Origin: Bacillota bacterium
GTDB lineage: Bacteria > Bacillota > Clostridia > Christensenellales > CAG-138
Direction: 5' to 3'
Assembly (NCBI GenBank): GCA_023435025.1
Contig: JAEYSE010000032.1
Span: 30,424 to 94,423 of the forward strand
Length of the DNA: 64,000 nt
Made by a program: the position numbers and the translations under genes. The notes beneath the pieces were generated by a model that saw only the letters and a program-made list of their open reading frames with translations, did no database searches and had not been told where the DNA came from. This document shows positions 42,060-58,737 of this stretch, one piece after another. How positions within the stretch are numbered: the stretch's first letter is position 1; each line of letters starts with the position of its first letter.

Positions 42060-42163
42060 ATGTGGATCTATGAAAAGAAACTGCAATACCCTGTTAACAT
42101 CTGCTCGCCCGATGTAAGAATGGCTAAATTGCTCATGGCACAATATGGCGGCCCTGATTCGGA
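42060..42163 (+). pseudogene. cotJC: cotJC 5' segment (codons 1-34 plus 2 nt), interrupted by the element
   Basis: MWIYEKKLQYPVNICSPDVRMAKLLMAQYGGPDSE matches the CotJC N-terminus. After 42163 the reading frame continues into unrelated sequence (LSGYKPHKCG...) and stops at 42251. Confidence 0.85.
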
Positions 42164-42183
42164 GCTATCCGGTTACAAACCAC
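42141..42183 (+). other. attL junction with GA core at 42162-42163 and the element-side half-site GGTTACAAACCAC (42171-42183)
   Basis: See the findings. The half-site is the inverted repeat of GTGGTTTGTGACC at the other end. Both lie 7 nt from GA. Confidence 0.75.
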
Positions 42184-42369
42184 ATAAATGCGGGACAAGC
42201 CAAAGGATCAGTGTAAGACTTGGCTTGGCTGGTATGAGCAGAATAAAATGAACAAAAGATATCATTCATATTCCGGTTGGGCAGGCGACTACTTTCATGA
42301 TTTCGGACTTATTGGGTGGGGAGCTTTTCCTCATCTTTTTTTATCTCCTGTCAAAGAAAGGAAGACCAT

Positions 42370-43350
42370 ATGCAGTTTTTTCTATTGATTTTAGGTCTTG
42401 CAATGATTGTGAAGAGCGCGGATGTGCTCATTGACTCCTCATCCAGAATTGCACGCAGGTATGGGGTTTCCTCATTTGTTATCGGATTAACGGTTGTTGC
42501 CTTCGGCACAAGCGCGCCGGAACTCGCGGTAGGGATTGTTTCGGGTATCGCCCGCACAAACCAATTGACGCTTGGGAATATTGTAGGGAGCTCGCTTTCC
42601 AACATCGCTCTCATTGTCGGAATATCATCCATCATCATGCCGCTTCGGGTAAGGGATGCCGTAGCAAAGCGAGAAATGCCCATGTTAATTGGAATCGAGC
42701 TCATTCTTTGCGCCATGATGCTTTTTGACAACGTCTTGTCTAGACTGGATGGCGTGTTCCTGCTGCTTGGTTTTGCCGGATTTATGGCATATATCATCCG
42801 CGACACAAAGAGTTCCACGCAGCCCGAACTCGATAAGGACAACAATATCGATACCGACGGCGAAAGGAACCAGCTTCCAAACAAAAAGAAAGAATCCAGC
42901 ATGGGCAAGCTCTGGCTCTTTTCGGCGCTTTCTCTGGCGGGATTGTTTTTGGGCGGAAAACTGACGGTGGACAGCAGCACGCAGATTGCGCAATCCTTTG
43001 GGTTAAGCGAAACACTCATCGGCCTTACTGTGGTATCGCTTGCCACTACCATGCCCGAGCTCATCACAAGCATTATGGCCGCAGTAAAAAAGGAACCGGA
43101 TATTGTGCTTGGCAACTGCATCGGCAGTAATATATTCAATATCTTGCTCGTGCTTGGTTTTTCCTCCGCCATCTCTCCTATTCCGGTGGAAAGCAGCCTG
43201 ATTTTGGATGCTGCAGCAATGGGAATCGTAACGATATTCTTATTTATTGTCTCTATCATTCAAAAGCAGATCCGGCGGGGTACCGGTATCCTGTTGCTTA
43301 TAAGCTATGTTGGATATCTTTCTTATAAGATTGCTACCGCTTTCATTTAA
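42370..43350 (+). CDS. Ca2+/Na+ antiporter (CaCA / YrbG family)
   Basis: The start is set at MQFFLLILGL. Two alpha-repeat motifs are present (GTSAPELAVG and ATTMPELITS). Confidence 0.85.
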   Translation: MQFFLLILGLAMIVKSADVLIDSSSRIARRYGVSSFVIGLTVVAFGTSAPELAVGIVSGIARTNQLTLGNIVGSSLSNIALIVGISSIIMPLRVRDAVAKREMPMLIGIELILCAMMLFDNVLSRLDGVFLLLGFAGFMAYIIRDTKSSTQPELDKDNNIDTDGERNQLPNKKKESSMGKLWLFSALSLAGLFLGGKLTVDSSTQIAQSFGLSETLIGLTVVSLATTMPELITSIMAAVKKEPDIVLGNCIGSNIFNILLVLGFSSAISPIPVESSLILDAAAMGIVTIFLFIVSIIQKQIRRGTGILLLISYVGYLSYKIATAFI

Positions 43351-43479
43351 CCCAACAACACAATGGATGCCCCACAGGCACTCCTTTTTTACTTTACGCT
43401 TTTACCCGCTAACGTAGGCCCTCAGAACGAGGAAGACATTGAATTGCTCCGCCTCAATGTGCTATGGTGAAAAAAATGG

Positions 43480-44637
43480 ATGGCGGGTGAACCCATGAAT
43501 GTTGAAGTATCCATAGCGCCCTGCGAGGACTATGACCTCAAAAAAGTAAAAAGCGCAATTCAGGCGGCGCTCCGGCCCATCAACGGGCTTGATTGGGTAA
43601 CGCCCGGCATGAAAATCGCCGTGAAAGCGAATTTGATGATGCGGTCAAAGCCGGAAAAGGCGGCGACCGTACACCCGCAAGTTGCAGTGGCATTGTGTGA
43701 GCTTCTGATTGAAAAGCAGGCAAATGTGGTCCTTGGGGACAGCCCGGGCGGCCCTTTTCACCCGGGCTATTTGGCGTCCGTGTACGCAGGTACGGGGATG
43801 ACTGAAGTGCTCAAAACCGGCGCTACGCTAAACCATGACTGCACTTATGAGGAGGTATCCTATCCGGACGCCGTTACTGCAAAGACATTCCAGATCACCA
43901 AGTATCTTTTGGATGTAGACGCCATTATCGATTTGTGCAAGATAAAGACGCATGGCCTGATGGCATATACCGGCGCATGCAAGAATTTCTTTGGCGCTGT
44001 TCCCGGTATGCATAAGTCCGAATACCACTACAAGTACCAGACACACGAGACGTTTGCCAATATGCTTGTGGATATCTGCGAGTGGTGTAAGCCCCGCTTA
44101 TGCATTGCCGACGCCGTAATGGCCATGGAGGGAAACGGCCCGTCCGGCGGGGCGCCACGCTTTATGGGCGCAATTCTTGCCGCTTTTAATCCGCATGCGC
44201 TTGATCTGGCCGCCGCACACCTGCTGAACCTTGGCTCAAAGGATGTTCCGACGTTGCATGCAGCGTATCAGCGCGGCCTCATTCCGCAAAGTGTTTCTGA
44301 GCTCTCCATTCACGGCGATATATCCCGGTTTGTCATACCCGATTTTCAGCTGACTCCGAAGCACGATGTCCAATTGTGGGGATCAAAAAACAAAACCATT
44401 GCGAAGCTATTGTCCAAAATGTTTGCGAGCCGGCCTGCGATAAACCTGAAAAGATGCATCGGATGTGCAGAGTGCCAGAAAGTCTGCCCTGCCCAAGCGA
44501 TTACCATGGTAAATCAAACAGCAAGAATTCAAAAAGATAGGTGCGTGCGCTGCTTTTGCTGCCAGGAGTTTTGTCCCAAAGGAGTTATCAGCGTGCACCG
44601 GCCATATGTTGCGCGCATCATGGATAGTCAAAGATAA
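43480..44637 (+). CDS. DUF362-domain protein with a C-terminal 2x[4Fe-4S] ferredoxin domain
   Basis: It has IAVKANLM...HPQVAVAL...VLGDSPGG (DUF362 pattern), plus CIGCAECQKVCP and CVRCFCCQEFCP. Confidence 0.75.
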   Translation: MAGEPMNVEVSIAPCEDYDLKKVKSAIQAALRPINGLDWVTPGMKIAVKANLMMRSKPEKAATVHPQVAVALCELLIEKQANVVLGDSPGGPFHPGYLASVYAGTGMTEVLKTGATLNHDCTYEEVSYPDAVTAKTFQITKYLLDVDAIIDLCKIKTHGLMAYTGACKNFFGAVPGMHKSEYHYKYQTHETFANMLVDICEWCKPRLCIADAVMAMEGNGPSGGAPRFMGAILAAFNPHALDLAAAHLLNLGSKDVPTLHAAYQRGLIPQSVSELSIHGDISRFVIPDFQLTPKHDVQLWGSKNKTIAKLLSKMFASRPAINLKRCIGCAECQKVCPAQAITMVNQTARIQKDRCVRCFCCQEFCPKGVISVHRPYVARIMDSQR

Positions 44638-44879
44638 CCTCATAAAAAAAGGAACACAAAAGCGAGGCCATATGCGTCGCTTTTCTTTTTTACAGCGAGC
44701 AAAATGTCAGCCTGTCCCACGCCTGGTATATTAATCCTTTTCGCCAAACCGCCCGATATTTTGAAAGAATAGGGTTGCCCCTCATTGCAGGTATTTGTTA
44801 TGATAATAGGGAAAGGCATTTGTTGTGCAACAACTTATACCTCGTTAATTTTCTGACAACAGGAAGAGCAGGTGAAATA

Positions 44880-46214
44880 ATGAAAGCCCATCCTTTTGCC
44901 GGCGGCGTGCATCCACTCAAATCATCCCATCATGGCAAGACACTCTCCAACGAAAGCGCCATCTCCGTCATGCCCGCGCCGGACATTGTGGCAATCCCCA
45001 TGGTACGGGTCACGGGCGCGCCATGTACCCCGCTTGTGAAGAAAGGGGACAGCGTGAAACTGGGGCAGTGTATCGGTAGAAGCGAAAGTTATGTGAGTGC
45101 ACCCATACACGCCAGCGTCTCCGGTACGGTAATCGCCGTGGAAAACCGGCCGCACCCCACGGGGAAAAGTCTCGTGCTTTCGGTAGTAATCCGAAACGAC
45201 CATCTCGACACCAAAGATGAAAGCTACGCACCGCCAGAAAACATAGATGCTCTGAGCGGGCCCCAACTCATATCGATCATTCGTGAAAAAGGTATTGTCG
45301 GCTTAGGTGGCGCCACGTTCCCTACACATGTCAAGCTTACCATTCCCAAAGACAAAAAAGTCGACGTATTGATCGCGAATGGGGCGGAATGCGAGCCGTA
45401 CCTTACGGCGGACGATCGCCTGTTGCAGGAGCATGCCGAAAACGTCATCGCGGGCATGCGGTTCGTGATGCGCGCGCTTCAAGTCAAGCAGGCATTTGTC
45501 GGCATTGAAGGGAACAAACTTCGGGCCATACGCGCCATGCGCGAGGCGGCGAAGGGCACGCCAATTGAAGTATGTCCGCTACGCGTCAAATACCCGCAAG
45601 GCGGAGAAAAGCAATTGATTTACGCCATCACCGGGCGGGAGGTCCCAAGCGGCGGCCTTCCGGCGGACGCGGGCTGCGTGGTGTTAAACGTCGGCACCTG
45701 CAACGCGATCTACGAGGCGGTTGCACTGGGCAAGCCGCTCCTTGAGCGCGTGGTAACTGTGACGGGTGGCGGCGTAAACACGCCCGGCAACCTCCTTGTA
45801 CGCATCGGCATAAGCTTCCGGGACTGCATCGCGTTCTGTGGCGGCATGGTAGAAGATACACAAAAGATACTTTCCGGCGGGCCTATGATGGGCATCGCGC
45901 AGTATACGGACGAAGTTCCGGTGATTGCAGGAACTTCGGGTATCCTGGTGCTTGCCGGGAAAGAAGCCCATGTACCGCCTGCCTCCCCCTGCATCCACTG
46001 CGGGCGCTGTTATCAAGTCTGCCCAGCGGGTTTGCAGCCCTATATCATTTCCGCAGCGGCAGACCGCAGTGACGCCGCGCAGGCGGCTTTGTTCCACGCG
46101 CTTGACTGCGTGGAGTGCGGCGCTTGCGCATATATCTGCCCCGCGCACAGGCAGCTTTTACAGAGCATGCGCCTTGCAAAGCTGAAAGTCCGCGGCGCGG
46201 CTATAAAGAAATAA
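44880..46214 (+). CDS. rnfC: Rnf complex subunit C
   Basis: The start is set at MKAHPFAGGVHP. It has GIVGLGGATFPTHVK, CIHCGRCYQVCP and CVECGACAYICP. Confidence 0.92.
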   Translation: MKAHPFAGGVHPLKSSHHGKTLSNESAISVMPAPDIVAIPMVRVTGAPCTPLVKKGDSVKLGQCIGRSESYVSAPIHASVSGTVIAVENRPHPTGKSLVLSVVIRNDHLDTKDESYAPPENIDALSGPQLISIIREKGIVGLGGATFPTHVKLTIPKDKKVDVLIANGAECEPYLTADDRLLQEHAENVIAGMRFVMRALQVKQAFVGIEGNKLRAIRAMREAAKGTPIEVCPLRVKYPQGGEKQLIYAITGREVPSGGLPADAGCVVLNVGTCNAIYEAVALGKPLLERVVTVTGGGVNTPGNLLVRIGISFRDCIAFCGGMVEDTQKILSGGPMMGIAQYTDEVPVIAGTSGILVLAGKEAHVPPASPCIHCGRCYQVCPAGLQPYIISAAADRSDAAQAALFHALDCVECGACAYICPAHRQLLQSMRLAKLKVRGAAIKK

Positions 46215-46264
46215 TCGGTAACATCCAAGTTCGCCTTATTCGGCATGTTCGGAGGTCATATGGC

Positions 46265-47263
46265 ATGAAGTTGAACGTTTCCCCTTCCCCCCACATCCGC
46301 GCCCCGCAAGATACGCGCTCGCTGATGCGGGATGTGCTCATTGCGCTTGCGCCCGCATGTATTATGGGTGCATATCGCTTTGGCTACCAGGCGCTGTATG
46401 TGCTGCTTCTCTGCACTGCGGCGGCAGTGCTGACCGAGTGGGCATTACAAAAGTTATTAAAGCGTGCCGTCACGATCGGGGATCTTTCCGCGGCGGTTAC
46501 CGGCATCCTCATAGGCATGAACCTGCCGGTTTCTAGCCCGTGGTGGATGTGCGTACTGGGCTCAGTATTCGCAATCGGGCTGGTAAAGGTGCCGTTTGGC
46601 GGCATCGGCAATAATTTCGTGAACCCCGCGCTTGCTGCGCGCGGCTTTCTTTTGGCCAGCTTTCCGGTGCAGATGACGGCATGGACGGCCCCGGTCAATT
46701 CATTCTTAACATCCACAGCGGATGCCGTTTCCACCGCCACGCCGCTTTCCCTGCTGGCGCAGGGCGGAAGCGCGACAGTCGCAGCAACGACGCCAATGCA
46801 GGAGTTTTTTGCGCTCGCTTTGGGGAATAGAGGCGGGTGTATCGGAGAGGTCAGTTCCGTTGCGTTGCTGATCGGGTTTCTCTACCTGCTGATACGCAAT
46901 GTCATCTCCTGGCGTATCCCGCTGATCTATATTGCCACAGTGTTTGTCGGCGTGGCGCTTTTGGGCGGCGGCGCAGGACAGACTGGTTACGCGCCGTTAT
47001 GGGCCGCCGCCATGCATACGGTATCCGGCGGATTGCTGCTTGGCGCGTGCTTTATGGCGACGGATTACTCCACGTCCCCCGTCACCCCCAAGGGACAGCT
47101 GATCTACGCACTGGGCTGCGGGCTACTTACGGTGGTCATCCGCCTGTATGGCGGGTACCCGGAGGGCGTTAGCTACTCCATACTCATCATGAACCTGTGT
47201 GTGCCGCTCATTGAGCGCTATATGCGCGCGCGGGTCTACGGGGAGGTAAAGCGCCATGCGTGA
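46265..47263 (+). CDS. rnfD: Rnf complex subunit D
   Basis: The start is set at MKLNVSPSPHIR. It has the FMN-attachment-type motif FMATDYSTSP. Confidence 0.92.
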   Translation: MKLNVSPSPHIRAPQDTRSLMRDVLIALAPACIMGAYRFGYQALYVLLLCTAAAVLTEWALQKLLKRAVTIGDLSAAVTGILIGMNLPVSSPWWMCVLGSVFAIGLVKVPFGGIGNNFVNPALAARGFLLASFPVQMTAWTAPVNSFLTSTADAVSTATPLSLLAQGGSATVAATTPMQEFFALALGNRGGCIGEVSSVALLIGFLYLLIRNVISWRIPLIYIATVFVGVALLGGGAGQTGYAPLWAAAMHTVSGGLLLGACFMATDYSTSPVTPKGQLIYALGCGLLTVVIRLYGGYPEGVSYSILIMNLCVPLIERYMRARVYGEVKRHA

Positions 47264-47801
47264 TCTTTTACATCTGGGAGGACGGCTGTTTTTGATTTCG
47301 TTAATCGCTGGACTTGCGCTGGGCGCAACCTATTTTGTAACAAAAGATCCGATCGCGGATCAGACACGCCTTGCTGCGGAAGCCGCACGCGCTGAGGTGT
47401 TTGAAGGGACTTTCGCACAGGATACGCAGGAAAAGCTGCCCGGAAACATAAAAACCTTGTACTTGGCCAAGGGCGAACAGGACGGCTATGTGATGGAAGT
47501 GGAGGCAACCGGCTACGGCGGCATATTCACCGTAACGGTGGGCGTAACGATGGACGGCGTGATCACAGGCGTTGTGGTAGGCGACAACAGCGAAACGCCG
47601 GGCTTAGGTAAAAACGCGCAAAATCCCGAGTTCGCCGCACAGTTTGTTGGCAAGGACGGACCCATTTCTGTGAAAAAGGGCGGCGGTGCCAGTGGGAATG
47701 AAGTAGACGCGTTAACCGGTGCCACCATTACCGCCCAGGCTGTAGTGAACGCCGTAAACGAAGCGCGTGAGTTCGCGCTTACGATTGGAGGGCAGTCATG
47801 A
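47256..47801 (+). CDS. rnfG: Rnf complex subunit G
   Basis: The 181-aa ORF has an FMN-binding domain and the motif VDALTGATIT. Confidence 0.9.
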   Translation: MRDLLHLGGRLFLISLIAGLALGATYFVTKDPIADQTRLAAEAARAEVFEGTFAQDTQEKLPGNIKTLYLAKGEQDGYVMEVEATGYGGIFTVTVGVTMDGVITGVVVGDNSETPGLGKNAQNPEFAAQFVGKDGPISVKKGGGASGNEVDALTGATITAQAVVNAVNEAREFALTIGGQS

Positions 47802-48460
47802 AAGCGCTCAAAGTCGTAATTAACGGCATATGGAAGGAAAACCCCACATTCCGCCTGCTTTTGGGCATGTGCCCCACGCTTGCGGTTTCTACCGCAGCAA
47901 TAAACGGTGTGGGTATGGGGCTTGCCGCAACATTCGTGCTGATATGCTCCAACGTATTCGTGTCCTTGCTGCGCAACTTTATCCCAACCAGGGTGCGTAT
48001 CCCCGCGTATGTAGTCATTATCGCGTCGTTTACGACGATTGTGGAGCTGTTGTTAAAGGCGTTTGTCCCCTCGCTAGACAAGGCGCTGGGGCTGTATATC
48101 CCGCTCATCGTCGTCAACTGCATTATACTCGCACGCGCAGAGGCTTTCGCAAGCTCCAATACCCCAATTATGAGCGCGCTCGATGGATTGGGCATGGGCC
48201 TTGGCTTTACGGCGGCGTTGACGTTCTTCGCTTCCATACGCGAGCTGATCGGCGCGGGCAGCATATTCGGCATTTCAGTGCTTGGTGACGGTTATGTCCC
48301 GGTGGTCATCATGCTGCTTGCACCCGGCGGGTTTATTACGCTGGGTTTGGTGCTGGGGGCTCTGAACGCCCTCTCCAACAAGAAAAAGAAGGGAGTGAAC
48401 AGCAATGACATGGCTTGTAAGGCTTGCCCTCATAGCGATCACTGCGGCGCTGGTCAATAA
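47798..48460 (+). CDS. rnfE: Rnf complex subunit E
   Basis: The 220-aa ORF has the RnfE/NqrD pattern (NPTFRLLLGMCPTLAV). Its 3' end overlaps rnfA by 56 nt. Confidence 0.9.
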   Translation: MKALKVVINGIWKENPTFRLLLGMCPTLAVSTAAINGVGMGLAATFVLICSNVFVSLLRNFIPTRVRIPAYVVIIASFTTIVELLLKAFVPSLDKALGLYIPLIVVNCIILARAEAFASSNTPIMSALDGLGMGLGFTAALTFFASIRELIGAGSIFGISVLGDGYVPVVIMLLAPGGFITLGLVLGALNALSNKKKKGVNSNDMACKACPHSDHCGAGQ

Positions 48461-48992: not shown

Positions 48993-49001
48993 GGAGGAAC
49001 A

Positions 49002-49817
49002 ATGACTTCGATTATATGGATCAGCGCGGGAGCAGTCGCCCTTCTTGGGCTGCTGCTGGGGGTGGCGCTGAGTGTGGCCGGAAAGTTCTTTTCCGTAAAA
49101 AGGGATGAGCGTATCGATGCGGTACGGGAACTATTGCCCGGCGCAAACTGCGGCGCTTGTGGCTATCCCGGTTGCGACGGGCTCGCAACCGCGATCGCAA
49201 CGGAAGGCGCAGCCGTTAATCTGTGTACCGTCAACACTGCTGAAAACGCATTGAAGATCGCGGAGTTGATGGGTGCCGACGAAAGCGGAATACAGCCGCT
49301 GATCGCGCATGTGCAGTGCCGCGGAACGCTTGACAATACGCAATTGAAATTTAATTATGAAGGGCTTTCGGATTGCGCCGCCGCAATGGCCATTGCCGAC
49401 GGCACCAAAAGTTGCCCCATGAGCTGCCTGGGCTTTGGAAACTGCGCGCGGGTCTGCCCTGTGGACGCCATCACAATCATCAACGGTCTCTCTACAATCG
49501 ATCACAGCCGCTGCATTACCTGCGGCAAATGCGTTGCGGAATGCCCGCGCCACATCATACGCCTGCTGCCAAAAAACAGCGTGGTGCGCGTGGACTGTTC
49601 CAACGTGCTCAAAGGCAAGGCGGTAAGCGAGAACTGCAAGGTCGGCTGCATTGGCTGCAGTATCTGCGCAAAAAGCTGCAAGTACGACGCAATCACCATG
49701 GTGAACGATCTGCCGGTATTCGACTACGAAAAATGCGTGGGCTGCATGGAGTGCGCAAAAAAATGCCCGCGCCAGATCATCTGGGGCACGGACAGCCCGC
49801 AAATGCAATCCGTCTGA
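49002..49817 (+). CDS. rnfB: Rnf complex subunit B (polyferredoxin)
   Basis: It has an N-terminal TM segment, CGACGYPGCDG, and several CxxCxxCxxxCP motifs. Confidence 0.92.
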   Translation: MTSIIWISAGAVALLGLLLGVALSVAGKFFSVKRDERIDAVRELLPGANCGACGYPGCDGLATAIATEGAAVNLCTVNTAENALKIAELMGADESGIQPLIAHVQCRGTLDNTQLKFNYEGLSDCAAAMAIADGTKSCPMSCLGFGNCARVCPVDAITIINGLSTIDHSRCITCGKCVAECPRHIIRLLPKNSVVRVDCSNVLKGKAVSENCKVGCIGCSICAKSCKYDAITMVNDLPVFDYEKCVGCMECAKKCPRQIIWGTDSPQMQSV

Positions 49818-49845
49818 AAGATGCAGCATATTGTTACAAAAATTA

Positions 49846-49880
49846 AGCGGGTGATTTTTAAAATCCCCCGCTTTTCATTT
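49846..49880 (+). terminator. Terminator after rnfB
   Basis: The stem is AGCGGGTGATTT / AAATCCCCCGCT followed by TTTTCATTT. Confidence 0.75.
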
Positions 49881-49978
49881 ACTTTCAATACTATTGCCAA
49901 ATCGGTGATAATTCGGCACCGCTGTATTTGGAACTACCTAAGCCCAGCGGATGAAGCCCAACTCTAACGCTGGCTTAT

Positions 49979-51256
49979 TTATATCCCCCAGAACAGCCAG
50001 ATCAACACATAACCGGAAAACACGGCGGCGAGCGTGAAGGGTACGCTGACCTTCATGAAATCCTGGGCCTTGACCTCGTGCCCTTCCTTGCGCAGGATAC
50101 CAAGGCCGGCGATGTTTGCGGAGGCCCCAATCGGCGTAAGGTTTCCGCCCAACGTCGCGCCGGCGAGCAGTCCAAAGTACAATACCGTGGGATCAACGCC
50201 CATGATCTGCGCAATGCCTGAAGTAACCGGCAGCATGGTCGCGATGTACGGAATGTTGTCGATAAACGCGGAAAGCAGCACGGAAGTCCAGACTAAAAGC
50301 GTATACATCAGGAACACGTTGTTGTTGCTGATGCTCACGAATATCCGGCTGACTTCGGTGATCACGCCCGCTTCCGTAATGCCCGCAATGACGACAAACA
50401 GCCCGGCCAGCAGCAGCAGGGTGAAATAATCAATTTCCTTGACCGTATCTTTAATGAACGCAACCCGCTTTTTAAACAGCTCCCGCACAATGCCGATCAG
50501 GAACAATCCCACGCAGATATATCCATTGATGTTTTGTGGTTTGTTGGGCAAGAAAGAGGCCAGTATCAACAACACAATGGTAGATACAAGAAGTACGGTT
50601 GGAAAATAATCCTTTACCACAGTGCGCTCACCCACGCTGATGGGCTGGCGTTGTTTCCTAAATACAAACAGCAGCACAAACGCGGAAGCAATTGCTCCAA
50701 TCTGAACCACAAAGAACATGCCAGGTCGGTTCTGGTAGAAGAAAAAGTCCAGGAAATCCATGTTGGCGTAACCGCCCAGCAGTATGGATGTGGTGTCTCC
50801 AACCAGTGTGGCCGCGCCCTGCAGGTTGGATGAAATGGCGATTGCGATAATGGGCATTACGGGCGAAATTTTAAGCTTTTTTGAAATATCCACCGCCACG
50901 GGCGCAACCATGAGCACAGTCGCCACATTGTCCACAAACGCGGAAATGAGGCCTGCAAACAGGGCCAGCGCGATAATTGCCCACCTGACATCAGGCATTT
51001 TATCCAATATCATATCCGCAAGTAACGCGGGCATCTTGGAATCAATAAACAATGCCACAATACCCATGGTACCGAAAATCATCATGATTACATTCCAGTC
51101 GATGGCGGAAAATATCTTGTTGGCCGGTAGAATCCCCAGTATAACGAACATCGCCGCAGAAACGAGCGCGATATAAGCACGCACCTTTGGGAAAGCGATG
51201 AGGCATACATAGGTCACAAGAAACAGAATCAGCGCAAGAGTCATTTTGAAAACCAC
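49979..51256 (-). CDS. ArsB/NhaD-superfamily ion transporter
   Basis: The 425-aa polytopic ORF has an internal repeat architecture typical of CitMHS/ArsB/NhaD permeases. Confidence 0.7.
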   Translation of the reverse strand: MVFKMTLALILFLVTYVCLIAFPKVRAYIALVSAAMFVILGILPANKIFSAIDWNVIMMIFGTMGIVALFIDSKMPALLADMILDKMPDVRWAIIALALFAGLISAFVDNVATVLMVAPVAVDISKKLKISPVMPIIAIAISSNLQGAATLVGDTTSILLGGYANMDFLDFFFYQNRPGMFFVVQIGAIASAFVLLFVFRKQRQPISVGERTVVKDYFPTVLLVSTIVLLILASFLPNKPQNINGYICVGLFLIGIVRELFKKRVAFIKDTVKEIDYFTLLLLAGLFVVIAGITEAGVITEVSRIFVSISNNNVFLMYTLLVWTSVLLSAFIDNIPYIATMLPVTSGIAQIMGVDPTVLYFGLLAGATLGGNLTPIGASANIAGLGILRKEGHEVKAQDFMKVSVPFTLAAVFSGYVLIWLFWGI

Positions 51257-51306
51257 CTCCGTATTATATAAGCCAGGACATCTGCCCTGTCCTATTCACA
51301 CATCCC

Positions 51307-51951
51307 CTATCTTGATTTCAAAAGTATCAGATCATCGTCGGCATACAGTTCCGTTTTTGCATCCAGAACCGCGATTACCTCAGAATTCCGGATAATAGCA
51401 ATGATATTGATGCCTTCCGTCTGCCTCAGGCGCAGCTTTTCCAAGCTTTTTCCCACCCAGTTCGGAAGGGGTTTCATTTCGATGATGTCATATTTTTCAG
51501 ATCGATGGATGGATTCCATGAGCCCGTTTGTAATCAGGCTGTAAGCGACCCTCTCCCCCATCTCCTTTTCAGGCAATATCACGCGGTCCACGCCGATGGA
51601 CTCCAAAATAAGTTTCTGGCGCGAACCGTTTGCCTTTGCAATGATGCAGGGCACCTTGAGTTCTTTTAATATCGTCGCGGTGACGGCAGCCGCCTCAAAA
51701 TCGGCGCTAAACGCGATGATGACCACATCAAAGTTTCCTATTCCCAATTTTTCCAGAACGGCCTTGTCGGAAGCGTCCGCTTGTACGGCATGCGTAGCAA
51801 AATCCGCAGCCTCGTGTACCAAATGCTCATCGATATCGCAGCAGAGCACATGGTGGCCGTTCTCAAACAGCGTGCATGCGAGGCCTCGGCCAAACTTTCC
51901 AAGGCCAAGTATGGCAAACTGCGTGTTTTCATCAACAGTAATCTTATACAT
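51307..51951 (-). CDS. trkA: K+ uptake system NAD-binding subunit (TrkA/KtrA)
   Basis: The 214-aa ORF has FAILGLGKFG (Rossmann, TrkA-N) plus a TrkA-C domain. Confidence 0.88.
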   Translation of the reverse strand: MYKITVDENTQFAILGLGKFGRGLACTLFENGHHVLCCDIDEHLVHEAADFATHAVQADASDKAVLEKLGIGNFDVVIIAFSADFEAAAVTATILKELKVPCIIAKANGSRQKLILESIGVDRVILPEKEMGERVAYSLITNGLMESIHRSEKYDIIEMKPLPNWVGKSLEKLRLRQTEGINIIAIIRNSEVIAVLDAKTELYADDDLILLKSR

Positions 51952-51980
51952 CAGCTTTTACCACCTTATATACTGTTTCA

Positions 51981-53372
51981 TTAACCGATCATAACGTCTT
52001 CATCCGGATATTGGATGCGCTCGTTTACAGTGCTTGTTCGTTGCTGGAGTGAAAGTATGATGGTGATTGGCCCAATCCTTCCGACATACATGCACAGCAT
52101 CAAAAGCAGCTTCCCAAAGGGGGAAAGAAAAGGCGTGATGCCCGTGGATACCCCAACTGTACCCAGCGCCGAAGCCACTTCAAAGAGTAGATCCGCAGGG
52201 GTATGGGCAAATGTGGAGGCGCGCTCCGTAACCGCCAGTATCACTCCTCCGCCCATCCACAGCAGCAGCATAATCACGATAATGGTCAGTGCCCGTTGCA
52301 GCGTAAGCACCGGTAGAGTCCTTCCAAATGCATACATGTTCCGCCTGCCGCTCAACGTGCTCCATACGCTTAAGAACAAAATAGCAACGGTAACAGTCTT
52401 CATGCCGCCCGCCGTCCCGCCCGGCGACCCGCCTATGAGCATCAGGATGCTGGATATCATTTTGGAGGTTTCGCTCAACCCGTTCTGGGCTATGGTAAAA
52501 AACCCTGCCGTGCGCAACGTAATGGACTGAAAGAAGGAGCATATGATCTTACCGCCAACCGAAAGCGGCCCCAACGTTTCTGGATTATTGTACTCCGAAA
52601 TGAAAAAGTAGGCTGCACCACCTACAATGAGTACCGCGGTTGCAATAAGCGCAAGCCTGGAATGCAATGAAAGCCTGTGTTTCCTTTTAATATCCGGCTT
52701 TAGTCTGTATTTGATCTTCAGGCCCACATCCCGCCACACAGAAAAACCGATACCACCCATCACAATGAGACCCATAATGACCAAGTTAATGACGGGATCG
52801 GTCGCATAGGGCATCAGGCTGAATTCACCTAAATTATCGAACCCCGCGTTGCAGAAAGCGGAAACCGCGTGAAACACGCCGTTTGCAATCGCGTCGTACC
52901 AGACGAAGCCCTTATCGAGAAACGAGAATGTCAGTATCAGCGCGCCTATGCCCTCGCAAAAGAATGTTCCGCGGATGACCAACAAGACCAGGCGTACCAT
53001 GCCGCTCAAGTCGTTGATATTGAACGTGGCCTGTACAGTCAGACGGTCTTTTAACGTCACCTTCCTGCCAAGGTAGACAATAAAGAAAGTAAATATGGTG
53101 ACTAAGCTGAGCCCGCCGATCTGAATCAGCAACAATATGACAATCTTTCCGAAAATGCTCCATGTCGTGGCGGTAACAAGCGGAACCAGCCCTGTAACGC
53201 AAACCGCCGAGGTAGCGGTGAAGAATGCGTCCAGCGCAGATACTTCCACTCCCGGCTGGTGCGAGATAGGAAGCCACAAAAGCAGGCCGCCGAACACAAT
53301 CACCGTCAGAAAGCTGATGGCGATTATTCTGGGAGTAGACATGTTCTTCTGTAATCTTGCAAGCGCCTTCAT
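51981..53372 (-). CDS. trkH: K+ uptake system membrane subunit (TrkH/KtrB)
   Basis: The 463-aa ORF has repeated selectivity-filter-like segments (CVTGL, NAGF, RTAGF, GTVGVSTG). Confidence 0.88.
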   Translation of the reverse strand: MKALARLQKNMSTPRIIAISFLTVIVFGGLLLWLPISHQPGVEVSALDAFFTATSAVCVTGLVPLVTATTWSIFGKIVILLLIQIGGLSLVTIFTFFIVYLGRKVTLKDRLTVQATFNINDLSGMVRLVLLVIRGTFFCEGIGALILTFSFLDKGFVWYDAIANGVFHAVSAFCNAGFDNLGEFSLMPYATDPVINLVIMGLIVMGGIGFSVWRDVGLKIKYRLKPDIKRKHRLSLHSRLALIATAVLIVGGAAYFFISEYNNPETLGPLSVGGKIICSFFQSITLRTAGFFTIAQNGLSETSKMISSILMLIGGSPGGTAGGMKTVTVAILFLSVWSTLSGRRNMYAFGRTLPVLTLQRALTIIVIMLLLWMGGGVILAVTERASTFAHTPADLLFEVASALGTVGVSTGITPFLSPFGKLLLMLCMYVGRIGPITIILSLQQRTSTVNERIQYPDEDVMIG

Positions 53373-53416
53373 TCGATATTGCCTTATCTGATCTCTTTCG
53401 TAATACTGCCTGTACT

Positions 53417-53446
53417 ATTATACTCGCTTGAACAGCACCCTGTCCA
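53417..53446 (-). promoter_or_regulatory. Sigma-A promoter for trkH-trkA
   Basis: The reverse strand reads TGGACA, an 18-nt spacer, then TATAAT. Confidence 0.6.
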
Positions 53447-53568
53447 TAAATGTCTTGAACTACTCGGATTGGGTAATGGACTCAAAAACGTACCAAATGG
53501 GCCGCTTTTCCTTCTAGGACAACGATCTCTCCTCATAGTATGACAGTAGCAATAACGGGAGGTAATAT

Positions 53569-53784
53569 ATGGGACGTCTCGCTGTGCAATATTCCGTCCC
53601 GGAAGAAAAGCTCGCGTGGAGCCACCCGCTGCTACGGCTTGTCATGCTCAAATCACTCAAAGCGCAGGGCGTTATTCCGGAGGCGATCTATATGCGCTGC
53701 CTCGAGCAGCTTGACTTGTCGGATGGCTACGATGCGCAAAAAGAGCGGGTGGCTGGAACGATAAAATATGAAGCCGAGCATTGA
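53569..53784 (+). CDS. 71-aa hypothetical protein immediately upstream of the recombinase (candidate accessory factor / RDF)
   Basis: GGGAGG lies 6 nt before the ATG. It overlaps the recombinase start by 17 nt. I recognise no motif. Confidence 0.5.
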   Translation: MGRLAVQYSVPEEKLAWSHPLLRLVMLKSLKAQGVIPEAIYMRCLEQLDLSDGYDAQKERVAGTIKYEAEH

Positions 53785-55435
53785 GAACATGCGCGCCCAG
53801 CTTATTTGGGGAAAGCGGCTGGCGGATATCCCTTTGAGAGCGACGTATTACGCACGGGTCAGCACGGACAGGGACGAGCAGTTGAGTAGCCTGTATAACC
53901 AGAAGGCTTATTTTGAAGAGAAAATACGCGCAAACCCGGCGTGGATATTCGTGCCGGGGTATGTGGACGAAGGCGTGACGGGTACTTCTACAAAAAAGCG
54001 GACGGAATTCTTACGCATGGTGGCGGACGCCAAAGCCGGGTTGTTCGATCTCATATTGACCAAGGAAGTTTCCCGCTTTGCGCGCGATCTGCTGGACTCT
54101 ATCGCCTATACCCGGGAGCTTCTGCATTATGATGTTGGCGTGGTGTTTGAGGACACGGGCTTAAACACCATTGACGCCGATTCCGAATTCCGCCTTGCCA
54201 TTATGGCGACCGTCGCACAGGAAGAATCGCGCAAGCTATCCGAGCGCGTAAAATTTGGCTGGAAGCGCGCACAGGAGGCCGGAAAGCGCCATGGCGCCGT
54301 AGCACCCGTGGGGTATGTGTTCAACAACAAAATCAACGGCTACGACATCGACCCGGAGACCGCTCCGGCTGTACAATATATTTACCGGCGCTATGCGGAG
54401 AATATTGTAGGCACTCGCACCATTGCGCAGGAGCTCAAGGACCGGGGCTATGTTAACCTGAGCGGGAACGCGTACTACCCGAGCACCATACGCCGCATCA
54501 TTGAAAACCCGCTATACAAGGGGTATATCGTAAGCCGAAAATCCGTAAGCATCTCCTACCGCAGCCAAAAAAAGCAATATAACCCTCCTGTGGAATGGCT
54601 GCTGCATTATGATCCTTGCCGCGTACCGCCGCTTGTTACGGAGGATGAATGGGACGCCGCGAACCGCGTAGCACGTTTGCGCGGTGAGTTCATGAAAGGG
54701 ATCGACTGCGGCGCTTATCATAAATCGGGTGGCAAGTATCCGTACACGGGCAAGATTTTTTGCTCCGCCCATCATTGCAATTATCAACGTGCACAGCAGC
54801 AGTGGAACGCTGACGGTGAACCAAAAAAGCGGAGTTATTGGCGCTGTGCCTGCTACAAACGCCCGGAACAGCCCTCCATCTGCGACGCACCGCGCCTGTA
54901 TACGGACCAACTGGACAGAATGATGCGCGAGCTTTTTCGAATACTGATTGACGAAAGTTTGGGCTCATCCCTGCCCGATGTGGTAAAAAGCGCGCTTTCT
55001 GCCCGGGATTGTTCTGCCAAACCGGAAAAGTTTACACAACGGCTGTTGCAGCTTCAAAACAAAAAAGCCAAATTGGTAAAAGGCTGGCTGGACGGCGTGA
55101 TACAGGATGCGGATTATCGCGTTTTGGATCAGGAAATCAGCGGGAAAATCGCAGCACTTGAAGCACAAAAAATGTGCAATCCCGTGCCGGAACAGGTAGA
55201 TTTAGTCGATCTTGAACGGAGTATGCATGAAAACGCCGCCATCAATACGCCGGAAGCGCTCGAAGAACTCATACGCTGCCTAGTACATCAAATACGGGTG
55301 GAACCCGTCCCGGACGAAGCGGGGGCGTATATTCTTAAAGTTGTACTCGATATTCCGGGCGTTGCCTTTTCCGGCACGGAACGCTTTGTGGTTTGTGACC
55401 CGAAAGGGAACTTGCCGCGGGGGTCCGGTACCTGA
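53768..55435 (+). CDS. Large serine recombinase (SpoIVCA/SprA/TnpX class)
   Basis: The 555-aa ORF has an N-terminal resolvase catalytic domain (YARVSTDRDEQ, SRFARD, EESRKLSERVK). It also has a recombinase domain, a Cys-rich zinc-ribbon region (CSAHHCNY...YWRCACY) and a coiled-coil tail. The last 26 nt lie beyond the attR core. Confidence 0.9.
   Translation: MKPSIENMRAQLIWGKRLADIPLRATYYARVSTDRDEQLSSLYNQKAYFEEKIRANPAWIFVPGYVDEGVTGTSTKKRTEFLRMVADAKAGLFDLILTKEVSRFARDLLDSIAYTRELLHYDVGVVFEDTGLNTIDADSEFRLAIMATVAQEESRKLSERVKFGWKRAQEAGKRHGAVAPVGYVFNNKINGYDIDPETAPAVQYIYRRYAENIVGTRTIAQELKDRGYVNLSGNAYYPSTIRRIIENPLYKGYIVSRKSVSISYRSQKKQYNPPVEWLLHYDPCRVPPLVTEDEWDAANRVARLRGEFMKGIDCGAYHKSGGKYPYTGKIFCSAHHCNYQRAQQQWNADGEPKKRSYWRCACYKRPEQPSICDAPRLYTDQLDRMMRELFRILIDESLGSSLPDVVKSALSARDCSAKPEKFTQRLLQLQNKKAKLVKGWLDGVIQDADYRVLDQEISGKIAALEAQKMCNPVPEQVDLVDLERSMHENAAINTPEALEELIRCLVHQIRVEPVPDEAGAYILKVVLDIPGVAFSGTERFVVCDPKGNLPRGSGT
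55388..55430 (+). other. attR junction with element-side half-site GTGGTTTGTGACC (55388-55400) and GA core at 55408-55409
   Basis: It is the inverted repeat of the left-end half-site (12/13 match) at the same 7-nt distance from GA. Confidence 0.75.
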
Positions 55436-55728
55436 CACAGCGTTTTTCCATGCCGGATAACCGGGTCCGCGCAACGGTAAACGACATCGGCACGGAGGAA
55501 CTTGCCCACTGGGAAATGATCGGAACCATGATCCATCAGTGCATGAGGGGCGCTACCGCCTCGGAGCTTAGGGCGGCGGGGCTGGAAGGGTTCTATACCA
55601 TGCACGACTGCGGCGTATTCCCCGCAGACCCCAACGGCGTCCCCTTTACAGCATCGTATATCCAATGTACGGGCGACCCCATTGCAGACCTTCACGAAGA
55701 CCTTGCAGCAGATGCTGCGATCGCATAA
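55410..55728 (+). pseudogene. cotJC: cotJC 3' segment (resumes at codon 35, then ends prematurely relative to canonical CotJC)
   Basis: In-frame translation is (E)LAAGVRYLTQRFSMPDNRVRATVNDIGTEELAHWEMIGTMIHQ...GVPFTASYIQCTGDPIADLHEDLAADAAIA*. This matches CotJC from the GELAAALRYL region on. It stops about 50 residues early. Confidence 0.8.
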
Positions 55729-57722: not shown

Positions 57723-57726
57723 AGAA

Positions 57727-58730: not shown

Positions 58731-58737
58731 TGCCTCA

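What the first reader, a model, noticed from the sequence alone, without database searches (positions are those of the whole stretch)
42060..55728. cotJC is a split gene, with a 13.2-kb intervening element carrying a large serine recombinase between its two halves
A CotJC N-terminus (MWIYEKKLQYPVNICSPDVRMAKLLMAQYGGPDSE) starts directly after cotJA and cotJB. It loses all similarity after nt 42163 and stops at 42251. CotJC similarity resumes 13.2 kb downstream, exactly where it broke off: (E)LAAGVRYLTQRFSMPDNRVRATVNDIGTEELAHWEMIGTM...GDPIADLHEDLAA, beginning at 55410. For comparison, B. subtilis CotJC as I recall it reads ...QYGGADGELAAALRYLNQRYTIPDKVIGLLTDIGTEEFAHLEMIATM... Joining 42163 to 55410 is in frame and gives ...GGPDSELAAGVRYL... 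with no residue missing or duplicated. A 555-aa large serine recombinase occupies the right end of the intervening DNA. This is the architecture of sporulation-specific intervening elements, namely skin in sigK with SpoIVCA and SPbeta in spsM with SprA. Those are excised in the mother cell to rebuild a late sporulation gene. I cannot verify from here whether a cotJC-targeting element of this type has been catalogued.
Basis: partly seen in the sequence, partly recalled or inferred. Interest (0 to 1): 0.9.

Follow-up and report, generated by a model that had tools for sequence, protein, structure and literature searches.

The report
Spore-coat gene split in three pieces
The spore-coat gene cotJC of this uncultured gut Clostridia bacterium is cut into three pieces by two unrelated DNA elements, each carrying its own recombinase, and the pieces have stayed under strong selection in several related species, so the gene is very probably rebuilt by cutting both elements out during spore formation.

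Summary
cotJC breaks at codon 35/36 (nt 42163) and resumes at nt 55408. The intervening 13.2 kb ends in a 555-aa large serine recombinase (LSR1).

The joined gene is still truncated at 140 aa, against about 196 aa in intact homologues. A second break lies at codon 135/136 (nt 55712). An 11.1-kb second element runs past the window end, to about 66,800 on the source contig. It carries an unrelated LSR (LSR2, 23% identical), and the last 61 codons follow directly.

Both elements have attP-like palindromes around a GA core. Relatives show all four occupancy states.

Element 1 carries rnfCDGEAB, trkAH and transporter genes. Element 2 carries an ABC-F ATPase gene, a GGDEF-domain gene, an iron-alcohol-dehydrogenase gene and rsgA. 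Neither carries recognisable phage structural or conjugation genes.

Four species share element 1. At least two of them, probably three, also carry element 2. The cotJC pieces have dN/dS of 0.01 to 0.10, so the gene is still used.

Excision in the mother cell is inferred, not shown. cotJC is already listed as a target of such elements. The three-piece arrangement with two recombinases and metabolic cargo appears to be a new variant.

The parts
41522..41788 (+). cotJA
   Evidence: Pfam CotJA at 4.6e-10 on the ORF 41387-41788. The start at 41522 is inferred from the 88-89-aa orthologues.
41799..42047 (+). cotJB
   Evidence: Pfam CotJB at 6.9e-26. It is 82 aa, like the orthologues.
42060..42163 (+). 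cotJC piece 1 (codons 1-35). The ORF runs on into element 1 and stops at 42251.
   Evidence: tblastn; Pfam Mn_catalase profile positions 1-37; blastn to the intact relative ends at 42163.
42136..42189 (+). attL1 (core GA at 42162-42163). The host-side arm is cotJC. The element-side arm is GCTATCCGGTTACAAACCACATAAAT.
   Evidence: Reconstructed attP1 is 18/26 symmetric around GA. The null is 6.5 +/- 2.3, and 0 of 20,000 positions reached 18. The motif TTTGTGACC-N7-GA-N7-GGTYACAAA is shared with L109.
42164..55409 (+). Element 1 (13,246 bp between the two GA cores)
   Evidence: Absent from relatives L007/L008, L004 and L017, which keep the flanking synteny. Present in L097, L109 and L110.
42316..44637 (+). 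Cargo at the left end of element 1: a Na/Ca exchanger (42316-43350) and a DUF362 Fe-S protein (43480-44637)
   Evidence: Pfam. Both are missing from element 1 of L109.
44880..49817 (+). rnfCDGEAB operon (cargo of element 1)
   Evidence: Pfam and called genes. dN/dS is 0.02-0.12 against species 2.
49979..53372 (-). CitMHS-family permease, trkA and trkH (cargo of element 1)
   Evidence: Pfam. dN/dS is 0.04-0.08.
53569..53784 (+). 71-aa ORF overlapping the LSR1 start; candidate recombination directionality factor
   Evidence: It has no Pfam or PHROG hit. It is present upstream of every LSR1 orthologue. dN/dS is 0.11-0.49. A conserved non-coding block lies upstream.
53768..55435 (+). LSR1, a 555-aa large serine recombinase. 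Its stop codon lies 25 nt beyond the crossover.
   Evidence: Pfam Resolvase, Recombinase and Zn_ribbon (24.6 bits against a cut-off of 25.3). phrog_95 integrase at 4e-99. dN/dS is 0.14-0.19.
55382..55435 (+). attR1 (core GA at 55408-55409)
   Evidence: Conserved in L097, L109 and L110.
55410..55712 (+). cotJC piece 2 (codons 36-135 plus the first bases of codon 136). The ORF reads on to a stop at 55728.
   Evidence: tblastn. blastn to intact relatives covers 55407-55712. dN/dS is 0.013 against species 2.
55685..55738 (+). attL2 (core GA at 55711-55712). The element-side arm is TGCTGCGATCGCATAAGCGC.
   Evidence: Reconstructed attP2 is 18/26 symmetric around GA. The element-side arm TGCTGCRWYC is conserved in unrelated genomes truncated at the same codon.
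55713..64000 (+). Element 2, the part inside the window. The whole element is 11,089 bp and ends at the GA core at 66800-66801 on the source contig, outside the window. Beyond the window lie a Macro-HTH gene, a 47-aa ORF (65048-65191), LSR2 (65227-66774, 515 aa), attR2 and then cotJC piece 3 (66800-66985).
   Evidence: Source contig fetched as L001 and L003. Element 2 is precisely absent from L110, which keeps synteny on both sides.
55854..63765 (.). Cargo of element 2 inside the window: ABC-F ATPase (55854-57479), 47-aa ORF (57579-57722), GGDEF (57849-58730), MerR (58738-59142, minus strand), Fe-ADH (59290-60468), Fer4 protein (60536-61648, minus strand), rsgA homologue (61979-63055) and a vWA protein (63103-63765, minus strand)
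   Evidence: Pfam, NCBIfam and PHROGs. Gene calls on L001 and L003.

Best explanation
cotJC is a three-piece gene interrupted by two independent integrative elements that have become permanent, vertically inherited residents of the chromosome.

Shown:
- Element 1 (13.2 kb) sits in the codon for Glu35. Element 2 (11.1 kb) sits in the codon for Glu136.
- Each element ends on its right side with its own large serine recombinase gene, which reads towards the next cotJC piece. The two recombinases are 23% identical.
- Each recombinase gene is preceded by a small conserved ORF (71 aa and 47 aa).
- Each element is bounded by attL and attR sites whose element-side arms form an attP-type palindrome around a GA core.
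- Joining at both GA cores gives an uninterrupted 196-aa Mn-catalase-family CotJC.
- Relatives show every combination of empty and occupied sites.
- The pieces, both recombinases and the small ORFs are under purifying selection in the species that inherited the arrangement.

Inferred:
- During sporulation each recombinase, helped by its small partner acting as a directionality factor, recombines attL with attR in the mother cell and releases two circles.
- Only when both have left can the cotJ operon produce full-length CotJC for the spore coat.
- The forespore chromosome keeps both elements, so they pass to the next generation.
- Element 2 descends from a very abundant family of integrative (ICE/IME-type) elements of gut Clostridia that use cotJC codon 136 as their attachment site. 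It has lost its transfer genes.
For: Anatomy.

Att sites: attP1 and attP2 are each 18/26 symmetric around GA, against a null of 6.5 +/- 2.3. The element-side arm at site 2 is conserved across unrelated genomes.

Empty sites:
- Both sites empty in L004 and L017.
- Site 1 empty in L007/L008.
- Site 2 empty in the Feifaniaceae MAG L110, with the same aminotransferase-dnaX downstream synteny.

Inheritance: the same element 1 is present in L097/L098, L109 and L110. Both elements are present in L097/L101.

Selection:
- cotJC pieces 2+3 against species 2 show 24 synonymous and 1 non-synonymous difference, omega 0.010.
- Against L110, omega is 0.06.
- Piece 1 against L109 shows 9 synonymous and 1 non-synonymous difference.
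- The neighbouring core genes dnaX, recR and ybaB have omega 0.02-0.09.
- LSR1 has omega 0.14-0.19 and LSR2 0.16.

The full join scores 181 bits on Pfam Mn_catalase, against 130 bits for the single join. It aligns over residues 2-177 with solved Mn catalases.

The organism has germination genes (gerXA-like, gerXC-like and a SleB domain) in the same window.

Precedent for LSR plus small directionality factor in sporulation-gene rearrangement: GirC/GirX (PMC5595907), SprA/SprB (PMC5499854) and the C. difficile skin element (PMC5025042).
Against: - No excision junction (attB or attP) was seen in any assembly. Only the interrupted form of this species is in the databases.
- No recognisable sigma-E or sigma-K promoter could be assigned upstream of either recombinase operon. 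There is only a conserved block containing TAGGACAA and CATAGTAT.
- The small ORFs have no known domain, so their role as directionality factors is a guess.
- Site 2 is the ordinary attachment site of active mobile elements in many hosts. Integration there therefore needs no developmental rationale.
- The organism is known only from MAGs, and sporulation has not been observed.
Confidence: 0.7

Rival explanations
1. Plain insertional inactivation. Two integrative elements, one of them a decayed ICE/IME, landed in their preferred attachment sites inside cotJC and simply knocked it out. They are never excised in a programmed way, and CotJC is dispensable in this lineage.
For: Site 2 is the standard target of a very abundant, evidently mobile LSR family. 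The identical integrase P0343 sits next to five different cotJC 3' ends. No sporulation promoter was identified. No rejoined form is in the databases.
Against: A dead gene would not keep omega at 0.01-0.10 in all three pieces across four species with dS of 0.3-0.9. No frameshift or stop codon occurs in any piece. Both recombinases and their small partner ORFs are also conserved. The elements have lost all recognisable transfer genes yet persist.
Confidence: 0.13
2. The elements do excise and restore cotJC, but not as a mother-cell programme. Excision might instead be a reversible or stochastic switch in growing cells (active-lysogeny style, as with Listeria comK), or a stress response.
For: The relatives of element 2 are mobile elements that must excise in vegetative cells in order to transfer. 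Purifying selection only requires that the gene be rebuilt somewhere.
Against: In B. subtilis, CotJC is known to be needed only in the mother cell, where the cotJ operon is sigma-E dependent (from memory). Excision in dividing cells would lose rnf, trk and rsgA unless the circles re-integrate. Every characterised case of a split sporulation gene is mother-cell specific (PMC4191935, PMC5595907, PMC5025042).
Confidence: 0.12
3. Assembly or binning artefact: a chimeric MAG scaffold places unrelated DNA between cotJC fragments.
For: The source is a metagenome scaffold.
Against: The same junctions occur in independent assemblies from different samples and pipelines (ENA, Logan and NCBI) and in four diverged species. 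The junctions fall on well-formed att sites.
Confidence: 0.01
4. The three pieces are translated separately and assemble without covalent joining, so no DNA rearrangement is needed.
For: Purifying selection alone cannot tell this apart from DNA rejoining.
Against: Pieces 2 and 3 have no start codon or ribosome-binding site at the junctions. The first ATG of piece 2 is 13 codons in, and piece 3 begins inside the attR2 site just after the LSR2 stop. The breaks cut through the codons aligned with Glu35 and Glu148 of the four-helix Mn site.
Confidence: 0.02

Closest known systems
skin element / SpoIVCA in sigK (B. subtilis; skinCd with CD1231 and the directionality factor CD1234 in C. difficile)
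   Same: It interrupts the coding sequence of a mother-cell sporulation gene. The LSR gene lies at the element edge, immediately upstream of the 3' gene piece. The join is precise and in frame. The element is inherited vertically through the forespore.
   Different: The target is cotJC rather than sigK. The elements here have no recognisable phage structural genes and carry metabolic and ion-transport operons. Two elements must leave, not one. Excision has not been shown.
gin element in gerE of B. cereus ATCC 10987 (GirC plus the 42-aa GirX directionality factor; PMC5595907)
   Same: It is a non-prophage intervening element. An LSR works with a very small protein of no known domain as the directionality factor. 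The attP site is an imperfect palindrome around a central dinucleotide.
   Different: gin has three recombinase genes and low GC, and it is strain-specific and recently transferred. The elements here match the host composition, are shared by several species, and each has one LSR with the small ORF directly upstream.
SPbeta / SprA-SprB in spsM (B. subtilis)
   Same: An LSR plus a small directionality factor rebuilds a spore-envelope gene during sporulation.
   Different: SPbeta is an active 134-kb phage. No phage functions are present here.
cotJC-interrupting elements already noted: a skin-like element in Laceyella sacchari (bioRxiv 10.1101/2022.02.25.481979), and cotJC listed as an integration target by Abe et al. 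2013 (cited in bioRxiv 10.1101/2021.11.22.469490)
   Same: The same target gene and the same general kind of element.
   Different: Those reports concern Bacilli and are single mentions. I could not read Abe 2013. I found no description of two elements in one cotJC, of the insertion codons, or of this cargo.
Interruption elements in nif/hup genes of heterocyst-forming cyanobacteria (PMC4874684; Calothrix NIES-4101 nifBHDK in 13 parts, PMC11249958)
   Same: Genes needed only in a terminally differentiated cell are broken into several pieces by several elements, each with its own recombinase. All must be removed.
   Different: The phylum, the cell type and mostly the recombinase families differ.
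Tn5397 / TndX and Tn4451 / TnpX, LSR-driven clostridial transposons (from memory)
   Same: Large serine recombinases with a GA crossover dinucleotide. Relatives of element 2 carry ICE/IME-type genes (ParA/ParB, DUF3801, TnpV, sigma-70 region 4 plus HTH_16).
   Different: Element 2 in this genome has none of the transfer genes, and it is fixed in at least two species.

Membership tests
Large serine recombinase (integrase) family | N-terminal resolvase catalytic domain with the serine nucleophile | tested here: met
   Pfam Resolvase: LSR1 at 1.4e-26 and LSR2 at 2.7e-20. The motifs YARVS(32) and YCRLS(10) are visible in the sequences.
Large serine recombinase (integrase) family | Recombinase domain followed by a zinc-ribbon domain | tested here: met
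   Pfam Recombinase hits both proteins. Zn_ribbon_recom scores 41 bits for LSR2. It scores 24.6 bits for LSR1, just under the 25.3 cut-off. Both proteins hit phrog_95 integrase at about 1e-100.
Large serine recombinase (integrase) family | An attP of about 50 bp that is an imperfect palindrome around a central dinucleotide, and an attB with a different sequence | tested here: met
   Both reconstructed attP sites are 18/26 symmetric around GA. The attB sites score 6/26 and 2/26. The null is 6.5 +/- 2.3.
Large serine recombinase (integrase) family | Excision requires a separate recombination directionality factor | not testable with these tools
   The candidates are the 71-aa and 47-aa ORFs directly upstream, conserved with each LSR. 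They have no domain hit.
Sporulation gene-intervening element (skin, SPbeta, vfbin, vrin, gin type) | Interrupts the coding sequence of a sporulation gene expressed in the mother cell | tested here: met
   The target is cotJC, which lies in a cotJA-cotJB-cotJC operon. That the operon is mother-cell (sigma-E) expressed is known for B. subtilis only (from memory).
Sporulation gene-intervening element (skin, SPbeta, vfbin, vrin, gin type) | Precise in-frame reconstitution of the gene on removal of the element | tested here: met
   The double join gives 196 aa, collinear with intact homologues and with solved Mn catalases.
Sporulation gene-intervening element (skin, SPbeta, vfbin, vrin, gin type) | The composite gene is functional | tested here: inconclusive
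   The evidence is indirect but strong: omega 0.01-0.10 on the pieces across four species. No protein or phenotype data exist.
Sporulation gene-intervening element (skin, SPbeta, vfbin, vrin, gin type) | Excision occurs during sporulation, in the mother cell only | not testable with these tools
   This needs DNA from sporulating cells. No junction was found in the public assemblies searched.
Sporulation gene-intervening element (skin, SPbeta, vfbin, vrin, gin type) | Element retained in the germ line and inherited vertically | tested here: met
   Element 1 sits at the same codon in four diverged genomes. Element 2 is in at least two. Flanking synteny is kept.
Prophage or prophage remnant | Phage structural, packaging, lysis or replication genes | tested here: not met
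   The proteins scanned against PHROGs hit only the two integrases, one unknown-function family (phrog_7371, the vWA protein) and a weak hit for the Macro protein. Pfam shows metabolic and transport genes for the rest.
ICE/IME family that uses LSR2-type integrases | An integrase about 70% identical, preceded by the small CKxVF...TKKW..INRLE ORF and integrated at cotJC codon 136 | tested here: met
ICE/IME family that uses LSR2-type integrases | Partition, mobilisation or conjugation genes | tested here: not met
   These genes are present in the relatives. They are absent from element 2 of the window and of species 2.
CotJC / Mn-catalase family (PF05067) | Full four-helix di-metal domain with conserved Glu and His residues | tested here: met
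   This holds only after both joins: 181 bits, profile positions 1-198. E35, E136 and H169 align with E35, E148 and H181 of 1JKU. That E35 and E148 are Mn ligands is from memory; His69 and His181 are among the listed catalytic residues of 1JKU (EEEEHH; PMC11796326).

The most novel reading that the evidence does not exclude
This would be a heritable two-recombinase AND gate. A spore-coat gene is rebuilt only when two unrelated serine recombinases both fire in the mother cell. The two elements are locked into the germ line because they have become the carriers of host core functions: the Rnf energy-conserving complex, Trk potassium uptake and RsgA. Losing either element from the forespore line would then be costly. 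Terminal differentiation of the mother cell would include programmed removal of these genes from its chromosome.
Probability: 0.25. Interest if true: 0.8.

Novelty: new variant of a known kind. Interest (0 to 1): 0.62.

Why it matters
Split sporulation genes rebuilt by recombinases are a classic case of programmed DNA rearrangement in bacteria. Nearly all described cases involve one element, usually a decayed prophage, in Bacillus or Clostridioides.

This case differs in three ways:
- One gene needs two independent excisions.
- The elements carry central metabolic operons rather than phage remnants.
- The arrangement has been kept through several speciation events, with measurable purifying selection on the pieces.

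This gives a natural system for asking why such elements are retained and how they are domesticated from mobile ancestors. Element 2 has abundant, still-mobile relatives at the same codon, which helps with that question. It also allows the question of whether the cargo stabilises the element.

There is a practical warning as well. cotJC is cut at codon 136 in very many gut-Clostridia assemblies, so truncated "Mn catalase" calls of 140-165 aa are att-site artefacts of annotation rather than short isoforms.

Finally, both crossovers fall in the codons aligned with two of the Mn-site glutamates. Mobile elements seem to pick the most invariant DNA of a gene as their landing site.

Tried and rejected
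- **Relatives of LSR1.** I searched JGI metagenome contigs and IMG/VR with the single protein and found none. This lineage is not in those collections. Orthologues came from the protein search instead.
- **Circle junctions.** Exact-pattern scans for the predicted attP1 junction (JGI metagenomes) and the attP2 junction (IMG/VR) gave nothing. This is uninformative for the same reason.
- **Genome scan with full-length CotJC.** The GTDB genome scan returned only intact genes, because ranking by E-value pushes split copies out of the best 80. It showed that intact cotJC is the norm but did not find the source species.
- **Rejoined protein.** I looked for the rejoined form of this species among clustered proteins. 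The best hit was 85% identical, so no rejoined form is on record.
- **Sigma factor.** I tried to assign a sigma factor to the conserved block upstream of the 71-aa ORF. CATAGTAT resembles the CATA-type -10 box of sigma-E/sigma-K, and TAGGACAA resembles a SpoIIID box (from memory). The -35 region and spacing fit neither, so I draw no conclusion.
- **Abe et al. 2013 (Mol Microbiol).** This paper reportedly lists cotJC, but it is not held.
- **Compositional signal.** GC content and skew profiles show no contrast between the elements and their flanks.
- **A spurious ORF.** I rejected the 94-aa ORF called antisense and abutting the LSR2 start. The plus-strand 47-aa ORF, with a strong ribosome-binding site and homologues in the ICE family, is the real gene there.
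- **L099 as ancestor.** I considered and could not settle whether the L099 arrangement is the ancestor of element 1 (see the items noticed in passing).

Full report
**1. The observation**

cotJA (Pfam CotJA) and cotJB (Pfam CotJB) are followed by an ORF at 42060-42251. Its first 35 residues are CotJC, and it then runs into unrelated sequence.

CotJC similarity resumes at 55408 (ELAAGVRYLTQRF...) and continues to a stop at 55728. Residues 1-38 hit 42060-42173 and residues 35-132 hit 55408-55704, so the two stretches abut.

The in-frame join gives 140 aa with a Pfam Mn_catalase match of 1e-37. The ORF at 53768-55435 is a 555-aa large serine recombinase, LSR1, with Resolvase, Recombinase and a marginal zinc-ribbon domain.

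**2.

The joined protein stops at 140 aa, whereas intact homologues are about 196 aa. In an alignment of 18 homologues the intact ones read ...EDLAAE-QKARATYEHL... This gene reads ...EDLAAD-AAIA*. So do many metagenome proteins of 140, 152 and 165 aa, which all diverge after exactly the same residue.

The window holds no further CotJC similarity. I therefore looked up the contigs that encode LSR1 and the last gene of the window. The source is a 323-kb MAG scaffold (ENA ERZ28595025, scaffold_16), which differs from the window at 1 base in the 10.9-kb overlap compared.

About 1.2 kb beyond the window end lies a second recombinase, LSR2. It is 515 aa, at 65227-66774 in window-continuous coordinates. 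Its domains are Resolvase, Recombinase and Zn_ribbon. The missing 61 codons follow directly: EQKARATYEHLMRLTDNPAVLDPLRFLRQREINHFQRFGECLMIVQDMACQKRPVREGRCS*.

cotJC is therefore in three pieces:
- codons 1-35 at 42060-42163;
- codons 36-135 at 55410-55712;
- codons 136-196 at 66800-66985.

Element 1 is 13,246 bp and element 2 is 11,089 bp. The double join gives a 196-aa protein. It scores 181 bits on Pfam Mn_catalase over profile positions 1-198, and it aligns over residues 2-177 with solved Mn catalases 6J42 and 1JKU.

**3. The junctions are recombinase attachment sites**

attL and attR of each element share a GA dinucleotide. For each element I combined the two element-side arms into a predicted attP. 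Each predicted attP is an imperfect palindrome with 18 of 26 symmetric positions. Random positions on the contig average 6.5 +/- 2.3, and none of 20,000 reached 18. The reconstructed attB sites are not symmetric.

- Site 1 has the form TTTGTGACC-N7-GA-N7-GGTYACAAA, and a second species shares it.
- At site 2 the element-side arm TGCTGCRWYC recurs in unrelated genomes cut at the same codon.
- The other arm at site 2...TTCTTATAWGATWGCAGCR, recurs next to five different cotJC 3' ends.

LSR1 and LSR2 are only 23% identical, so the two elements are independent.

Both crossovers fall in Glu codons, E35 and E136. These align with Glu35 and Glu148 of the L. plantarum Mn catalase 1JKU, which I recall as metal ligands. 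These are among the most invariant codons of the gene.

**4. Content of the elements**

Element 1 carries, in order:
- a Na/Ca exchanger;
- a DUF362 Fe-S protein;
- rnfCDGEAB;
- a CitMHS-family permease;
- trkA and trkH;
- a 71-aa ORF that overlaps the LSR1 start;
- LSR1.

Element 2 carries, in order:
- an ABC-F ATPase;
- a 47-aa ORF;
- a GGDEF protein;
- a MerR regulator;
- an iron alcohol dehydrogenase;
- an Fe-S protein;
- an rsgA homologue that passes the TIGR00157 cut-off;
- a vWA protein (phrog_7371 at 1e-60, unknown function);
- a Macro-HTH protein;
- a 47-aa ORF with a strong ribosome-binding site;
- LSR2.

No phage structural gene and no conjugation gene is recognisable. Composition does not differ from the flanks.

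**5. Comparative evidence**

Relatives show all four occupancy states.

- *Both sites empty.* This is so in GCA_036677445.1 (L004) and in an Oscillospiraceae MAG (L017). In L004 the upstream ABC-transporter synteny is the same. Its cotJC aligns to 39248-42163, then 55407-55712, then 66794-66994.
- *Site 1 empty, site 2 occupied by a different element.* This is L007-L010.
- *Site 1 occupied, site 2 empty.* This is a Feifaniaceae MAG (L110). The order there is rnf-trk, a 67-aa ORF, LSR1, a contiguous 148-aa 3' part of cotJC, then aminotransferase and dnaX. Its DNA jumps from 55712 to 66794 of the window contig.
- *Both sites occupied.* The whole architecture, with the same flanks, is seen in a second species (L097/L098/L101/L102). 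There LSR1 is 79% identical and LSR2 81% identical. A third species (L109) has element 1 without the exchanger and DUF362 genes. Its piece 2 also ends AADAAIA*.

**6. The split gene is still under selection**

Between the window and species 2, synonymous divergence of neighbouring genes is 0.5-0.9.

- cotJC pieces 2+3 (161 codons) show 24 synonymous and 1 non-synonymous difference, giving omega 0.010.
- For comparison, dnaX has omega 0.093, recR 0.064 and ybaB 0.016.
- LSR1 has omega 0.14 and LSR2 0.16. The 71-aa ORF has 0.20 and the 47-aa ORF next to LSR2 has 0.27.
- Against L110, omega for the cotJC pieces is 0.06.
- Against L109, piece 1 shows 9 synonymous and 1 non-synonymous change, and pieces 1+2 together give omega 0.075.
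- These values are in the same range as the joined gene compared with intact relatives, 0.06-0.09.

A gene that was simply destroyed would not behave like this. The pieces must still be read as one protein somewhere in the life cycle.

**7. Origin of element 2**

LSR2 belongs to a very large family of integrases, about 70% identical, with thousands of members. One member, P0343, has the identical protein on contigs from many samples. In five of six contexts examined it is followed at once by a cotJC 3' fragment belonging to a different host. It is preceded by a 52-aa ORF homologous to the 47-aa ORF here, and by sigma-70-region-4 and HTH_16 regulator genes.

Other genomes cut at codon 136 carry ParA/ParB, DUF3801, DUF6017, TnpV and SpaA-type genes just inside the junction. 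cotJC codon 136 is therefore the regular attachment site of a family of integrative, probably conjugative or mobilisable, elements of gut Clostridia. Element 2 is a stripped-down and fixed descendant.

By contrast, LSR1 has only six close relatives (64-79% identical). All the proteins listed below these are under 50% identical.

**8. Mechanism**

The anatomy, the att sites, the empty sites, the inheritance and the selection are all shown.

The following steps are inferred:
- In the mother cell each LSR, with its small upstream partner acting as directionality factor, recombines attL with attR and releases a circle.
- Full-length CotJC can be made only after both events.
- The forespore keeps both elements.

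The closest tested analogues are GirC/GirX of gin, SprA/SprB of SPbeta, and the C. difficile skin recombinase with its directionality factor.

I could not assign a sporulation sigma factor. A block conserved in three species lies upstream of the 71-aa ORF (CCTTCTAGGACAAC...CCTCATAGTATGGCAGTA). It contains a CATA-type -10-like motif, but the -35 region fits neither sigma-E nor sigma-K.

The window also encodes gerXA-like and gerXC-like proteins and a SleB-domain protein. This is consistent with a spore former.

**9. What is known**

cotJC is already on record as a target. A skin-like element interrupts cotJC of Laceyella sacchari (bioRxiv 10.1101/2022.02.25.481979). Abe et al. 2013 are cited for cotJC, gerE, yaaH and yhbH as frequent integration loci (bioRxiv 10.1101/2021.11.22.469490). 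I could not read that paper.

A non-phage intervening element is known in gin (PMC5595907). Genes split into several pieces by several elements are known in heterocyst cyanobacteria (PMC4874684, PMC11249958).

In the literature I could search, I found no description of:
- a sporulation gene that needs two excisions;
- these insertion codons;
- Rnf/Trk cargo;
- selection measured on the pieces.

I therefore rate the finding as a new variant of a known kind.

**10. Verdict**

- Confidence that this is a real three-piece gene with two LSR elements: about 0.97.
- Confidence that the gene is rebuilt by excision: about 0.8.
- Confidence that this happens specifically in the sporulating mother cell: about 0.7.

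Interest: 0.62.

Noticed in passing
L099 9801-20145 (ENA ERZ28596937 scaffold_14) and L100: A more distant LSR1 orthologue (64% identical), with its 67-aa partner ORF, lies directly upstream of the same rnfCDGEAB-CitMHS-trkA-trkH block. No cotJC piece is nearby. FloA and a V-ATPase operon lie on the left. This is a circular permutation of element 1 without the att motif. The rnf and trk genes are as conserved as in the other species, but the LSR has about twice the non-synonymous divergence. It could be the ancestral state of element 1, or an excised circle re-inserted elsewhere.
   Followed up: partly
L099 20482-20748: An ammonium-transporter gene is truncated after about 65 residues, just right of trkH. 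It may be another interrupted gene.
   Followed up: no
window 55408-55435: The LSR1 reading frame runs 25 nt past the crossover into cotJC DNA. Its last 8 residues are therefore encoded by the target gene. After excision they would be replaced by a different 17-residue tail, read from the left end of the element. The same overlap is seen in L097, L109 and L110.
   Followed up: partly
window 42162-42164 and 55711-55713: Both crossovers lie in Glu codons (E35 and E136) that align with Glu35 and Glu148 of the L. plantarum Mn catalase 1JKU. I recall these as manganese ligands. The two unrelated recombinases both use a GA core inside a GAR codon.
   Followed up: partly
L104-L108 (6001-7800) and L103: One identical integrase protein (P0343, listed in 495 blocks of the contig index) is joined to cotJC codon 136 in five different host backgrounds. 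In a sixth it is joined to a 5'-nucleotidase gene, a secondary site. Truncated 'Mn catalase' proteins of 140-165 aa are therefore common annotation products in gut metagenomes.
   Followed up: partly
window 42201-44753: The Na/Ca exchanger and DUF362 genes at the left end of element 1 are absent from element 1 of L109. The cargo next to attL1 has therefore turned over since the species split.
   Followed up: partly
window 63103-63765, continuing to about 64895 beyond the window: A vWA protein (phrog_7371, 1e-60) and a Macro-domain protein with an HTH tail lie next to LSR2. They are missing from element 2 of species 2, which instead has aldo-keto reductase, FMN dehydrogenase and TetR genes. They may be a leftover defence or addiction module of the mobile ancestor.
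   Followed up: no
L101 11554-11790: Species 2 has about 190 extra bases between the LSR2 stop and attR2, compared with the window contig.
   Followed up: no
window 17961-22003 and 27423-28742: There are a spore germination receptor operon (gerXC-like and gerXA-like, probably with gerXB between them) and a protein with a SleB-type domain plus an NlpC/P60 domain. This supports a spore-forming lifestyle for this MAG.
   Followed up: partly
window 24208-26124 (minus strand) and 55854-57479: There are two ABC-F ATPase genes in the window. One is chromosomal and above the cut-off of the ribosomal-protection-like model. The other, inside element 2, is closest to the PRK15064 model but below its cut-off.
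   Followed up: no
window 53500-53568: A non-coding block conserved in three species lies upstream of the 71-aa ORF (CCTTCTAGGACAAC...CCTCATAGTATGGCAGTA). It is absent from the L099 arrangement and is a candidate regulatory site for the recombinase operon.
   Followed up: partly
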